Source: an uncultured Gemmatimonadales bacterium
GTDB taxonomy: Bacteria; Gemmatimonadota; Gemmatimonadetes; Gemmatimonadales; GWC2-71-9
Assembly: GCA_963844035.1 (NCBI GenBank)
Contig: CAWJMT010000027.1
Location: 1-64,000 of the forward strand
Direction of reading: 5' to 3'
Length of the DNA stretch: 64,000 bases
Shown: positions 31,201 to 34,200 of the stretch, piece by piece
Layout of the letters: every line of letters begins with the position of its first letter
Numbering within the stretch: position 1 is the first letter of the stretch
Made by a program: the position numbers

Positions 31201-34200
31201 CGTCACCGTGAGTTATTACGAGTGGGCGCAAAATCTTCAGCAGTACCGCTGGACCCACGAGCAGGTGAACCGTGAGCTGCGCGCGACGATCACCAAGGCT
31301 TATGAGGGCGTGCGGGACTTGGCCAAACAGCGTGGGGTGACATTCCGTACGGCTGCGTACGCGATCGCGCTACAGCGGGTGGCGGAGGCGGAGAGGCTGA
31401 GGGGCAATTAGGCGGGAGGGCGGGAAGGCGGGAAGGCGGGAAGATGGTACGTTGCCCAACGATTTGATTCAGCACACGCGCTGGCCTCCATGAGAATTGT
31501 CGGCGTGGCTCGCTACCATCGATTCGAAGCTTGGAAGAAGTCGCATCACCTCGCGCTCGAGGTGTATCGCATCACGGTATCCTTCCCACGACACGAGTTA
31601 TACGGGATCACCTCCCAAGCAAGGCGCGCCGCGCTCTCCGTTCCAACGAACATCGCGGAGGGGTCTGCCAAGCGAGGCAGACGGGAGTTCGGGCGCTATC
31701 TCGACATCGCCCTCGGCTCGTTGTCCGAGCTCTCGTACCTCCTCTTGGTGGCGCGAGACTTGGGGTTGTTGTCACAGGAACAGTGGAGCGCATTCGACGC
31801 CTTGCACGACGAAACTGGCAAGATCTTGTGGGGACTCTACGAGGCCGTGCGACGCGGGTCGACTACGATCCGCTAGGCCATAATACTTCCCGCCTTCCCG
31901 CCCTCCCGTCTGCCCGCCTCAATCCGCAGGAACTCCCGGTCTCGAATACAACGATTGGTAGGGATCCTCCCCCGGCTGCGTAAACACCCGTACCTCGATC
32001 GCGCGGATCGTCTCGGCGATGTCGGCGCCGTTTTGCAGGTAGATCTCGTCGAACAGATTGAGGTTCATGCGGTACAGCCGCTGGGCGATCACGACGGCGT
32101 TGTTGAGCGTCGAGGTGGCATACCAGCGCCAGTCGTAGGTCTCGAGTGACTGCCCGACCGGCCCCGTGAGCTGGGTGCGGGCCCACCGGAACAGCGTCGC
32201 CCGCGCCTGCGCCACGCCTACCCCGCCCGGAGTGCTCGCGTACGCGGAATCGAGCCGCCGCGCCAGCTCGGAGTAGAACACGTCGAGGATGCGCTCGTCC
32301 CGCCAGCGCGCGGCCGCGCGCGCCGCGTCGAGCGAGTCGCCGCGCGACCGGAAGAACGCCTGCGCGCCCCGATAGCCGACGAAGCTCGCAAAGCTCTCGT
32401 CGAACGCCGTGTGGCCCTTCACGTACAGCGTGTTGTGCGCCAGCTCGTGCAGCACCGTGGCGACCAGCTCCATCGTGTCCTTGCCCATGATCGTCGAGAG
32501 CAGCGGGTCGCTGAAGTAGCCGAGCGTCGAGAACGCTCCCGCGCGGCGCAGGTAGGTGTCGTACCCTTCCTCTTCAAGGTCCGCGGCCGTCTCCCGCGCG
32601 CGCGCGAAGTCGAAGAAGCCCTTGTACGGCACCACGCCCACGATCGGATAGGTCCAGGTGTAGGCGCGCAGCCGCTCGCGGCGGCTGGCGGACAGCAGCA
32701 GCAGCAGCGTGTCGCGCTTCACGTCGGCGTAGGTGGTGTAGGTGCGGCCGACCGACAGCTGCATCGAGTCCGCCGCGTACGCCCGCGCGTCGAGCACCAG
32801 CTGCAGGCGCTGGCGCAGCGGCGCCGGCGTCTTCGAGTCGGCCACGAGCCCCGCGATCGACCGGCGCCGCAGCAGGATGCGGGCTTCCTCGGTTCCGGCG
32901 CGCGCGATGTAGCGCGCATCGGCGCTCACGACCAGCGCCAGCAGCACCATCGCCGGCACCCCCACCACCACCCACAGCAGCAGCCGGCGGAACACGCGAC
33001 CCCAGTTCGGGGAACGGCGCAGCATCACTTCCCCCATCGCACCCCGACGCGGTGCACCGCGCCGCTCGGCATCTCGAGCGCGCGATAGGCGTAGTCGATC
33101 CGCAGATGCCCCAGTGCCACGCCCGCCCCGAACGCGAAGGGCGACTGGTTGTTCGCCGCCGCGGCACCGCTCACCCCCACGCGGGCGACGAGCCCCACGC
33201 CCCCTCGCGTGACGATCCCGCCCTCCGCGCCGGCCACCAGCACCGACGCTTCCCCCTCCGGCCACTGGCCTTCAAGCGTCGTGCGCAATCGCGCGGTGCC
33301 CTGGGGATCGACGAAATTCATCGTGAGTCCGACGCGGGTGCGGTGCGGCAGGTCTGCTCCGGTGCTCAGATCGCCTCCCAGATTCTGTACGCTCGCACCC
33401 AGCGCGAAGATATCGAACAGCGCGATTGCCACGCCGGCGTCGCCCGCCCATGACTCGACCTGGGCGGTAGAGTCTCCCTCGCGAACGTACTTCACGGATG
33501 CCCCGAGCGCGATCATACCGAAGCGGAATACTACAGAGGAGAGGCCCAGCACGTCGTCGGGTTCCGTGCTTCCCGACGCCGGGCGGAGCATCTGGCCCGC
33601 CAACCCATAGTTGAAATGACCGAGGCGCGTGGCGACCGCGGCGGACGTGTGGGCTACGCCGCCGGGGTACCACGCGTACGACCCTTCGAGCGCGACGCCG
33701 CGAATGGTGGCGAGTCCGGCGGGGTTGGCGAACATCGAGCTCGCGTCACCGACCAGGGCGACTCCGGCGCCACCGAGGCCCGCCGAGCGAGTGGAGCCGG
33801 AGAGAAAGGTGATGCTGGGCGGCGACTGGGCGGTCAGGCGGTCAGGCGGTCGGGCGGTCAGCGAAGCGAGGATCGTCCAGACCGCCAGACCGCCTGGCCG
33901 CCTGACCGCCAGACTCATCGGATCCGAAGCACGTTGAGCCGCGGTACCACGAACTTTGCAGCAAGGCGCCGGTCGCTGTCGCTGAACAGCAGCGTGAATT
34001 GGCCGCCGCCCGGCTCCTGCAGCGCACGCTGATATGTCCCGGCCGAGCCCGCGTAGATGGTGCCGGTCACATTGATGGCGTTCCCCGGCCCGCCGGGTGG
34101 CGGCGAGCGGGAACGTCGCCGGGAGTCGGCTGGGGCGTCGCCTGCGGTGCACGACGCGTGTCAACGCCGGGAAGTCCGAGCGGAACGCCCAGGACTTGTA

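What a model noticed while it worked through the whole genome (the two positions that open the first line are those of the whole stretch)
31407..31923. Four-helix-bundle (23S-rRNA-IVS-type) genes sit inside ~500-nt hairpin cassettes whose arms are tandem 7-8-nt repeats
Every copy of the PF05635 'four helix bundle / 23S rRNA intervening-sequence protein' gene in this genome (7 loci: C27:31407-31923, C27:104557-105109 (frameshifted), C37:130224-130721, C12:79389-79906, C9:144981-145551, C1:103172-103715, C30:5229-5733) lies in the loop of a 500-570-nt cassette bounded by inverted arrays of a tandemly repeated 7-8-nt unit; the unit differs between cassettes (GGCGGGAA, GGTGTCA, AGGCGGTT, AAGACGMT, GCGTCTAT). 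None is in rRNA. The same build, each time with another unit, surrounds the orthologues in other genera of the family and in sampled genomes of five other phyla (Nostoc, where the arms are the classic STRR heptamers, Rubrivirga, Caldilineaceae, Acidobacter [...]
Evidence so far: Flanks read directly; local alignment of left flank against reverse complement of right flank gives arms of 21-61 nt at all 7 loci; HMM search PF05635 finds 8 matches = these 7 loci. Relatives: 17 of 29 loci from other genera of GWC2-71-9 and 33 of 58 full-flank loci of Gemmatimonadales species have TRF-detected inverted tandem arrays (period 7-9, up to 17 copies) directly flanking the ORF, units all different. Literature searches found no description. 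Other phyla: 11 of 26 PF05635 match rows (two rows are halves of one gene) in five genomes reached through an STRR pattern scan show the inverted tandem arrays, e.g. Nostoc (GGGGAAA)16...(CCTTTCC)12. STRR literature search shows no link to thi [...]
(Added by a program. Inside this text positions count along the whole contig: contig position 1 is position 1 of the stretch shown here. "Call 12" and the like, gene names such as g00115 and contig names such as C1 are that model's own, and its searches are not shown. The text may have been shortened before it was handed on; [...] marks where a part breaks off. The agent that wrote the report below was given it as the finding of a first reader that could run no searches.)

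Follow-up and report, generated by a model that had tools for sequence, protein, structure and literature searches.

The report
Ring-protein gene with cognate repeat family
A small gene of unknown function sits between two mirror-image runs of an 8-base repeat; the same repeat words recur without the gene at dozens of gene junctions, and related bacteria carry other words that match their own copies of the gene, so the protein likely binds its own repeat and likely helps it spread, a testable lead on the unexplained 7-8-base repeats of many bacterial genomes.

Summary
The feature is real: a PF05635 four-helix-bundle gene between inverted 8-mer arms (34 nt, 88% complementary), outside rRNA. Two corrections. 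Three of the '7 loci' are one site in co-assembled strains, so there are 5 sites. The units are not private to a cassette: the genome holds 260 such arrays and 83 inverted pairs, mostly gene-less.

Inverted arms flank 91 of 105 relatives' genes (controls 2 of 193) and 52 of 78 loci from many phyla (controls 1 of 279). Added by my tests:
- A cassette's unit is usually its genome's dispersed repeat (near-diagonal 5x5 test; two counter-cases).
- Orthologous junctions carry genome-specific words.
- Cassettes flip, lose the gene and are swapped cleanly between strains.
- In Gemmatimonadales the gene has an internal promoter-like motif shared with recA and ssb, not lexA.

Best reading: a RAYT/REP-like gene-plus-repeat system without a transposase, acting on DNA; rRNA intervening sequences are a special case. 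Binding, expression and the writing enzyme are not shown. The scan noted this build before on other DNA (255 notes). In print I found only unlinked pieces.

The parts
30143..31411 (+). Host gene: glutamate dehydrogenase (gdhA); its stop codon touches the left arm
31410..31443 (+). Left arm: about four G-rich 8-mer units (GGCGGGAA family)
31442..31471 (+). Predicted regulator/promoter motif of the class found before recA and ssb in this order; a weak copy here (score 14.0)
31492..31497 (+). Predicted -10-like hexamer at the spacing seen in other cassettes; suggests a near-leaderless start at GTG 31505
   Evidence: spacing, read on the sequence; inference
31490..31876 (+). Four-helix-bundle ORF (PF05635/TIGR02436), 128 aa from ATG 31490 or 123 aa from GTG 31505; fold of Xcc0516 and DGR Avd
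31886..31919 (+). Right arm: reverse complement of the left arm, ending at the stop codon of the convergent gene
31919..33097 (-). Host gene: putative aminopeptidase (PF10023), convergent; start uncertain
33829..33914 (.). Gene-less arm pair (GGCGGTCA family) in frame inside a signal-peptide-like N-terminus, bracketing its hydrophobic core
46328..46428 (.). Mismatched arm pair (two 8-mer families) around a terminator-like host hairpin
55220..55306 (.). Gene-less hairpin (GGTGTCA family) at the atpG-atpD junction (gene labels read from the translations)
57794..57859 (.). Gene-less hairpin (GGCGGTTA family) just after a stop codon, upstream of atpA (label read from the translation)
63092..63201 (.). 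Gene-less arm pair (GGCGGTTA family) filling the tRNA-Gly/tRNA-Met spacer

Best explanation
This is a gene-plus-repeat unit: a conserved four-helix-bundle gene enclosed by inverted arrays of a 7-8-nt word that also recurs without the gene at many gene junctions of the same genome, and the protein, predicted to form a five-membered ring without a catalytic site, likely binds its own word on single-stranded DNA and likely lets host recombination copy the arrays and flip or swap the cassette. Shown: the anatomy; the match between a cassette's word and its genome's dispersed word; word and period tracking the protein tree; gain, loss, inversion and strain-to-strain replacement at fixed junctions; purifying selection; and, in Gemmatimonadales, a promoter-like motif shared with the yraN-recA operon and ssb. 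Inferred: expression when single-stranded DNA builds up (damage or uptake); direct binding; the role of host recombination. The long RNA stem is read as a by-product that makes insertions tolerable and, in rRNA, gives the known RNase III-excised intervening sequences.
For: Cognate match: overlapping matches to three copies of a cassette's unit were 112, 101, 25, 82 and 28 in the genome holding that cassette and 0-18 in the other four. GGTGTCA is commonest in G000 (88), G021 (61), G034 (28) and G002 (13); the last three hold proteins of one clade with such arms, while G013 (13 matches, none in that clade) has 0. The five family genomes with no PF05635 match have 0, 0, 0, 2, 0 octamer and 0, 0, 0, 4, 0 heptamer matches (Spearman 0.56 over 25 genomes, kin not independent). 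At atpG-atpD the gene-less arms of G000, G026 and G009 use the word of a resident cassette, and many genomes have no array there. In other phyla, 58 and 18 matches lie in the cassette's own genome against at most 5 and 0 elsewhere. Period changes 9 times on a 201-protein tree against at least 21 in 300 shuffles. At different sites, proteins of 55% identity or more have units within 2 changes in 50% of same-period pairs, against 15% below 45% identity. Focal site in relatives: nothing (5 genomes), gene-less hairpin with another word (G017), another gene (G015), opposite orientation (G006, G009), and in G002 arms around the last 25 codons of the G006/G009-type protein but in G000's orientation (56%, E 7e-8). 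C9 against C30: flanks 98.2% and 97.5% identical, cassette 72.7%; C9 against C1: flanks 85-88%, cassette 92.9%. dN/dS 0.07-0.18 in the 14 of 23 pairs not saturated. A motif trained on 63 relatives' leaders gives 19 hits over 18 bits in G000 against 0 in the reversed genome. It scores over 12 before recA in 19 of 26 genomes (controls 1 and 0), before ssb in 14 of 26 (controls 0 and 1) and in 15 of 26 held-out cassettes, but before lexA in 0 of 28. Fold: 2GSC TM 0.88, Avd 4DWL TM 0.78. The Avd pentamer takes flipped-out bases into crevices between protomers (bioRxiv 2023.10.23.563531, passages). In X. campestris a four-unit GGGAATC array lies between the bccP stop and the XCC0516 start (PMC4692102 supplement; 242 of 4170 genes carry such a repeat, so this is modest support).
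Against: No binding, expression or enzyme is shown. Two of four cross-phylum tests found the unit only at the cassette itself (G045, G047), and another genome (G051) had 37 matches to the G045 word. G000 holds array families (GGGAAGA/GGGGACG and GCGGAAT types) with no cognate gene in the 84%-complete assembly. No protein column predicts the unit beyond the null (top z 3.3 against a null 95th percentile of 3.5); per-letter signals come from few clades, with at most 5 independent pairs. No two cassettes at different sites exceed 69% protein identity, so no recent jump was caught. Co-inheritance of arms and gene, or host-driven conversion of arms to the local word, could give the same correlations without binding. 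The promoter motif is confined to Gemmatimonadota (1 of 80 GTDB loci over 12), is weak at the focal cassette (14.0) and at C37 (7.0 at best), includes a generic -10 box, and is not before dprA or comEC. The swap at the mnmG site comes from a mixed-strain assembly and could be a chimera.
Confidence: 0.45

Rival explanations
1. IVS-like RNA self-erasure with a passive gene: the arms exist to close a long RNA stem that RNase III cuts or that insulates the insert. The cassette moves by ordinary homologous recombination, the arms drift to whatever word the host genome amplifies, and the protein does not recognise them.
For: The stem is strong (z -5.56). In Coxiella the 23S IVS with this ORF is cut by RNase III and has tandem heptamers in its 5' arm (PMC4990558, passages). 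In GTDB loci the gene lies between co-directional genes in 53 of 80 cases, often inside housekeeping operons. Five of the G000 sites that match relatives' cassettes hold G000's own words, not the relative's.
Against: Words track the protein tree across sites. Arms without a genome-wide pool exist, so cassettes bring their own words. Genomes lacking the gene nearly lack arrays. 12 of 53 adjacent inverted pairs mix two words, some of different period. An internal promoter would give a transcript without the left arm.
Confidence: 0.22
2. Post-transcriptional regulon: the ring binds its cognate repeats on mRNA just after stop codons or in 5' leaders, like REP stem-loops or TRAP-type repeat binders. 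Arrays accumulate by slippage and selection rather than by a copying mechanism.
For: The purine-rich strand follows a stop codon within 15 nt for 69 of 260 arrays, the pyrimidine-rich strand for 16 (crude gene caller). Four units is the mode. The same placement and transcription of most repeats are reported for Xanthomonas (PMC4692102, abstract and passages). Avd binds RNA.
Against: The same junction carries unrelated words in sister lineages and none in many. Arrays also sit in coding linkers, a signal peptide and a tRNA spacer. The promoter class points to DNA metabolism.
Confidence: 0.18
3. The protein is the Avd-like partner of an unlinked reverse transcriptase or terminal transferase that writes the words telomerase-style onto broken DNA ends, giving head-to-head arrays with the G-rich strand pointing inward.
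For: Homology to Avd. G-rich-arm-first polarity in 53 of 54 adjacent opposite-strand pairs in G000 and in 77 of 91, 44 of 52 and 31 of 33 cassettes. Arms bracket host DNA.
Against: No PF00078 match in G000 (84% complete). No reverse transcriptase or transposase family among 150 neighbours of GTDB loci (some had no Pfam hit). No template RNA was sought or found.
Confidence: 0.1

Closest known systems
ORF-bearing 23S rRNA intervening sequences (S23p; Coxiella burnetii, PMC4990558, passages read; Leptospira as cited there)
   Same: Same protein family, same size, ORF in the loop of a terminal stem; tandem heptamers were noted in the Coxiella 5' arm.
   Different: Not in rRNA but at gene junctions. 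It has both orientations, its own promoter-like motif in this order, an ORF under purifying selection (the Coxiella ORF is reported as decaying and probably untranslated), and a genome-wide family of gene-less arms. RNase III cleavage is untested here.
RAYT transposases with REP/REPIN repeats (PMC2817692, passages read)
   Same: Gene flanked by two inverted copies of a repeat that is abundant in the host; cognate gene-repeat pairs that co-vary; gene-less inverted doublets; placement near stop codons; fast turnover at fixed sites.
   Different: The protein is an all-helical bundle with no HUH/tyrosine transposase fold. The repeats are tandem 7-8-mers, not palindromes with a GTAG-type head. The Y1 transposase genes of G000 have no such arrays within 1.5 kb.
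Dispersed heptamer repeats: GGGAATC of Xanthomonas and GGGGA(C/T)T of Nostoc (PMC4692102, passages and supplement part 1); TAACTGA of Beggiatoaceae (PMC4679880, passages); cyanobacterial STRR (recalled)
   Same: Four-unit mode, inverted pairs, G-rich strand after stop codons, species-specific words, copies inside genes, origin unexplained.
   Different: Those papers name no associated protein: 'xcc0516' has 0 hits in the first main text, 'four helix' 0 and 'S23' 0 in the second. Many words here cannot form quadruplexes.
Avd of diversity-generating retroelements (bioRxiv 2023.10.23.563531 and PMC10053308, passages read)
   Same: Same fold (TM 0.78) and, by likeness to 2GSC, a predicted pentamer; a nucleic-acid binder without its own chemistry.
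   Different: Below the Avd model cut-offs (24.5 of 80 bits; 22.6 of 40); no reverse transcriptase next to it or found in G000.

Membership tests
23S rRNA intervening sequence (S23p type) | Lies inside an rRNA gene | tested here: not met
   No Rfam match in the 7 loci; neighbours are protein genes
23S rRNA intervening sequence (S23p type) | PF05635 ORF in the loop of a terminal stem | tested here: met
23S rRNA intervening sequence (S23p type) | Excised from RNA by RNase III without religation | not testable with these tools
   One RNA run, held as contigs only, with a 179-nt piece about 90% alike at depth 2.6
RAYT/REP (REPIN) system | HUH/Y1 tyrosine transposase | tested here: not met
   Only PF05635 and bAvd-like Pfam hits; four-helix model
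RAYT/REP (REPIN) system | Gene flanked by two inverted copies of a genome-abundant cognate repeat | tested here: met
   not met in two of four cross-phylum genomes
RAYT/REP (REPIN) system | Palindromic repeat with a GTAG-type head | tested here: not met
   Arms are tandem 7-8-mers; 115 distinct units seen
Diversity-generating retroelement (Avd) | Reverse transcriptase with template and variable repeats | tested here: not met
   No PF00078 match in G000 (84% complete); none among 150 neighbours; template/variable repeats were not sought
Insertion sequence / MITE | Transposase and near-identical copies at unrelated sites | tested here: not met
   No transposase in the cassette; at most 69% protein identity between sites among 95 loci in 63 site clusters
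Insertion sequence / MITE | Target-site duplication | tested here: inconclusive
   None evident by eye at empty and filled gdhA junctions, but the relatives are too diverged
Dispersed heptamer repeats (GGGAATC/STRR type) | About four-unit arrays, inverted pairs, G-rich strand after stop codons, species-specific word | tested here: met
   against PMC4692102
LexA (SOS) regulon | Same operator before lexA and the target gene | tested here: not met
   Cassette motif before lexA in 0 of 28; lexA's own TTCG-N7-TTCG repeat in 28 of 28 lexA promoters but 1 of 110 cassette leaders

The most novel reading that the evidence does not exclude
Four-helix-bundle rings are the long-missing specificity factors of bacterial 7-8-base repeats. 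Each ring reads its own word and, when single-stranded DNA accumulates, directs an unidentified host or partner enzyme to write about four units of that word on both sides of gene ends, terminators, signal-peptide cores and its own gene. That would be a transposase-free, programmable repeat-writing system, with rRNA intervening sequences, STRRs and the Xanthomonas heptamers as its products.
Probability: 0.3. Interest if true: 0.92.

Novelty: new variant of a known kind. Interest (0 to 1): 0.76.

Why it matters
The paper on the Xanthomonas heptamers says that heptamers are over-represented in many bacterial genomes and poorly characterised (PMC4692102, introduction passages). PF05635 is a very large family with solved structures and no function; about 29,000 GTDB stretches are estimated to hold a match. 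Tying each protein lineage to its own repeat word links both puzzles. It makes them directly testable with a word-swap binding assay, recasts the rRNA intervening sequences as one landing site of a general element, and, if the writing step is real, points to a new way of changing DNA at gene ends without a transposase.

Tried and rejected
- Cassette-private units: rejected.
- Seven independent loci: rejected, there are five sites.
- Gene-less hairpins as scars of lost genes in general: one true remnant in G002, but 0 of 23 G000 loops of 30-160 nt show a convincing one (best score 42, shuffle means of the top loops 31-36).
- Other cargo between arms in G000: the longer loops examined hold host coding DNA, not another small mobile gene.
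- Partner enzymes: no GxxExxY-type nuclease (PF13366) and no reverse transcriptase in G000; Y1 transposases are not flanked by arrays; 150 of 152 extracted GTDB neighbours were scanned and are mostly housekeeping genes.
- Residue-to-letter code: not found. My first cross-phylum nearest-neighbour test counted kinship labels as phyla and is discarded; the corrected value is modest (3.11 against 3.41 +/- 0.11).
- SOS/LexA control: not supported. A competence regulon in the strict sense is not supported either: no motif before dprA or comEC.
- The generic sigma-70 and terminator scan found nothing in the cassette.
- RNA: one soil metatranscriptome with a 0.06 share. On the ORF it gave a 179-nt contig about 90% alike at depth 2.6 and a 38-nt partial match; this is no evidence of expression. 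The arms and flanks were not covered.
- No complex prediction was obtained; the pentamer rests on likeness to 2GSC.
- Literature: ten searches found no paper linking PF05635 genes to repeat arms outside rRNA. The library lacks most subscription journals and bioRxiv supplements, and older STRR and Leptospira papers were not read.
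Full report
OBSERVATION. The window shows gdhA ending at 31411, a left arm of about four GGCGGGAA-type units (31410-31443), a PF05635/TIGR02436 ORF (31490-31876, +), a mirror arm (31886-31919) and the stop of a convergent aminopeptidase gene at 31919. The arms are 34 nt and 88% complementary. The folded RNA closes them into one stem (z -5.56). The family HMM finds 8 matches at 7 loci, none in an RNA gene. Six of the seven pass my inverted-repeat cut-off; C30 does not.

TWO CORRECTIONS. First, C9, C30 and C1 have the same flanking genes. C30 is 96.6% identical to C9 over 8.8 kb and C1 87.6% over 2.4 kb, so they are strain copies of one site and the genome has five sites. 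Second, the units are not private to cassettes. A scan found 129 period-7 and 131 period-8 arrays (61 real against 1 shuffled on two contigs), with a mode of four units. They form 83 inverted pairs, 76 with loops under 150 nt. Five gene-less pairs lie in this window alone: in a signal-peptide-like N-terminus, around a terminator-like hairpin, at atpG-atpD, before atpA and in a tRNA spacer. Among adjacent opposite-strand pairs the G-rich arm comes first in 53 of 54, and 12 of those 53 mix two words. By a crude gene caller, 58 of 260 arrays lie inside genes. Frame breaks in three cassettes are not evidence of decay, since host genes in this assembly are broken too.

HOW GENERAL. I fetched all listed PF05635 matches of the own family and 19 of 46 from two sister families. 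Of 110 matches my HMM recovered, 105 had full flanks, and 91 had an inverted repeat scoring 28 or more, against 2 of 193 shifted control windows. Eight more divergent loci that this HMM missed gave 5 at 34 or more. A GTDB sample chosen by protein likeness (best 80 of 602 from 2 of 64 parts of the collection) gave 52 of 78 against 1 of 279. IMG/VR gave 33 of 44 against 1 of 150, with some near-duplicates. Period 7 dominates and 115 distinct units were seen. GTDB neighbours are mostly housekeeping operon partners, with no conserved enzyme.

EACH GENE HAS ITS WORD. Three tandem copies of a cassette's unit, counted as overlapping matches that include the cassette, gave a near-diagonal table over five genomes. 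GCGAAAA: 112 in G013, 0 elsewhere. GAGTACC: 101 in G021, 0 elsewhere. GGGTGTA: 25 in G034, 18 in G021. GCCATCA: 82 in G018, 8 and 1 elsewhere. GCCGCAA: 28 in G009, 2 elsewhere. GGTGTCA peaks in G000, G021, G034 and G002; G013 has none. It also appears 3-10 times in G006, G009, G012, G016 and G020, where I saw no protein of that clade. The five family genomes without the gene almost lack the two patterns tested. At the atpG-atpD junction, G000, G026 and G009 carry gene-less arms in the word of one of their own cassettes, and many relatives carry nothing. Repeat period follows the protein tree (9 changes against 21 or more in shuffles), and close proteins at different sites have close words. In other phyla the match held in two genomes (58 and 18 matches) and failed in two, where the word occurs only at the cassette. 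That limits the rule, but it also shows that cassettes bring their arms with them. G000 has two array families without a cognate gene in the assembly. No residue-to-letter code emerged. Independently, the published table of GGGAATC repeats in Xanthomonas campestris lists a four-unit array between the bccP stop and the start of XCC0516, the solved prototype of this family, without comment and without a partner arm (PMC4692102, supplement part 1).

MOVEMENT. At the focal junction, five relatives have abutting genes, one has a gene-less hairpin of another word, one has an unrelated gene, and two have a cassette in the opposite orientation. G002 has arms around the last 25 codons of a protein like that of G006/G009 but in G000's orientation (56% identity, E 7e-8). 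That shows both an inversion and loss of the gene from between its arms. Such remnants were not seen in 23 G000 loops. Four of 15 multi-member site clusters show left-right swapped flanks, a sign of opposite orientation. At the mnmG site, C9 and C30 are 98% identical in the flanks but 73% in the cassette, while C9 and C1 are 85-88% in the flanks and 93% in the cassette. This is a replacement confined to the cassette, unless the assembly is chimeric. Of 21 G000 site groups matching relatives' cassettes, four (three sites) hold a cassette, five hold arrays of G000's own words and the rest show no array. No two sites share proteins above 69% identity, so moves to new sites are rare or old. The ORF is under purifying selection.

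AN INTERNAL PROMOTER. A positioned motif emerged, GCG then about 7 nt then TG(G/A)T, with a -10-like hexamer 20-21 nt later and the start codon close behind. Trained on 63 leaders from other genomes, it gives 19 hits over 18 bits in G000 against 0 in the reversed genome. Hits over 15.5 include four cassette copies, yraN (followed by recA), ssb, a tyrosine integrase, two Uma2 nucleases, a DUF559 nuclease and two Y1 transposases, besides about twenty unexplained hits. In relatives it precedes the recA operon in 19 of 26 and ssb in 14 of 26 genomes, with controls at 0-1. It never precedes lexA (0 of 28), which has its own direct repeat. It is not before dprA or comEC, is weak at the focal cassette (14.0), and is absent outside the phylum. 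So in this order the gene likely belongs to a LexA-independent recA/ssb-type regulon, and its own transcript would lack the left arm.

PROTEIN. The model is four helices (pLDDT 95) and matches Xcc0516 (TM 0.88), BT_0352 and DGR Avd (TM 0.78). Avd is a positively charged pentamer that binds an RNA stem-loop through flipped-out bases and does no chemistry itself (bioRxiv 2023.10.23.563531, passages). No reverse transcriptase was found in G000.

MECHANISM. I commit at 0.45 to a DNA-level, RAYT/REP-like system without a transposase. The ring likely binds about four units of its word on single-stranded DNA when such DNA builds up, and host recombination likely copies arrays and flips or swaps cassettes. 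The RNA stem would make insertions tolerable and, in rRNA, gives the known IVS. The rivals are passive IVS-like self-erasure (0.22), an mRNA-binding regulon (0.18) and an unlinked repeat-writing reverse transcriptase (0.10). All correlations could in part reflect co-inheritance or local conversion of arms; only a binding test separates these. RNA data gave nothing usable.

WHAT IS KNOWN. The Coxiella IVS paper reports this ORF, a 28-bp stem, RNase III excision and tandem heptamers in one arm (PMC4990558, passages). The Xanthomonas/Nostoc and Beggiatoaceae papers describe the dispersed repeats without a protein (PMC4692102 and PMC4679880, passages). The RAYT paper gives the closest organisational model (PMC2817692, passages). 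PMC10053308 notes the likeness of PF05635 to Avd (passages). Ten searches found no paper that joins these pieces; subscription journals are largely missing. The element fails the defining tests of IVS (rRNA site), RAYT (transposase), DGR (reverse transcriptase) and IS, but works like RAYT/REP in layout. This scan has noted the build before on other DNA (255 notes by words). Those notes are unchecked leads; the points used were tested here as listed.

VERDICT. Real, widespread, and apparently undescribed as a system. I class it as a new variant of a known kind, since the known IVS is one case of it, with a 0.3 chance of a categorically new repeat-writing mechanism. Interest 0.76.

Noticed in passing
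G000:C12 upstream of 98581 (-) and loci L379-L406: A direct repeat TTCG-N7-TTCG, usually in two copies, stands before lexA in 28 of 28 Gemmatimonadales genomes: a likely LexA operator of this order.
   Followed up: partly
G000:C2:40783, C2:11707, C10:45715, C18:2564, C23:8076, C23:11461, C37:36105, C5:186289: A second promoter motif, not shared with lexA, precedes yraN-recA, ssb, a tyrosine integrase, Uma2 and DUF559 nucleases and Y1 transposases: a candidate DNA-damage or single-stranded-DNA regulon with unknown regulator.
   Followed up: partly
G000:C27:108030 and 110269 (outside the window): Two near-identical, top-scoring copies of that promoter motif 2.2 kb apart, before an unknown 154-aa ORF and an SDH-type serine protease gene.
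   Followed up: no
window 33829-33914; L046: An arm pair forms the two ends of a signal-peptide-like N-terminus in frame and leaves the hydrophobic core as loop; G009 has the same build, 14 other orthologues shown have ordinary N-termini.
   Followed up: partly
G000:C3:75638-76512, C31:130953-131314, C31:82676-83150, C3:179212-179241: Arrays in frame inside host proteins, in linker-like stretches.
   Followed up: partly
window 57700-57790 and orthologues L279-L301: A conserved near-palindrome (TGTGA..TTTTCACAA type) upstream of atpA in most relatives; resemblance to a Rex-type operator is recalled, not tested.
   Followed up: no
L290 (G027:C4:10329-10643): A divergent four-helix-bundle gene without evident repeat arms sits at the junction upstream of atpA, where other genomes have gene-less hairpins.
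   Followed up: no
window 27039-28959, about 55390 (atpG), 33025-36700: Several host genes are split by frame breaks, which suggests indel errors in the assembly.
   Followed up: no
G000 contigs C9, C30, C1 (also C1:11300 and C17:4700): Duplicate regions at 87-97% identity show that the bin mixes strains or close species despite a 3% contamination estimate.
   Followed up: partly
L041 (G015:C24): At the focal gdhA-aminopeptidase junction this genome carries an unrelated small gene without arms.
   Followed up: no
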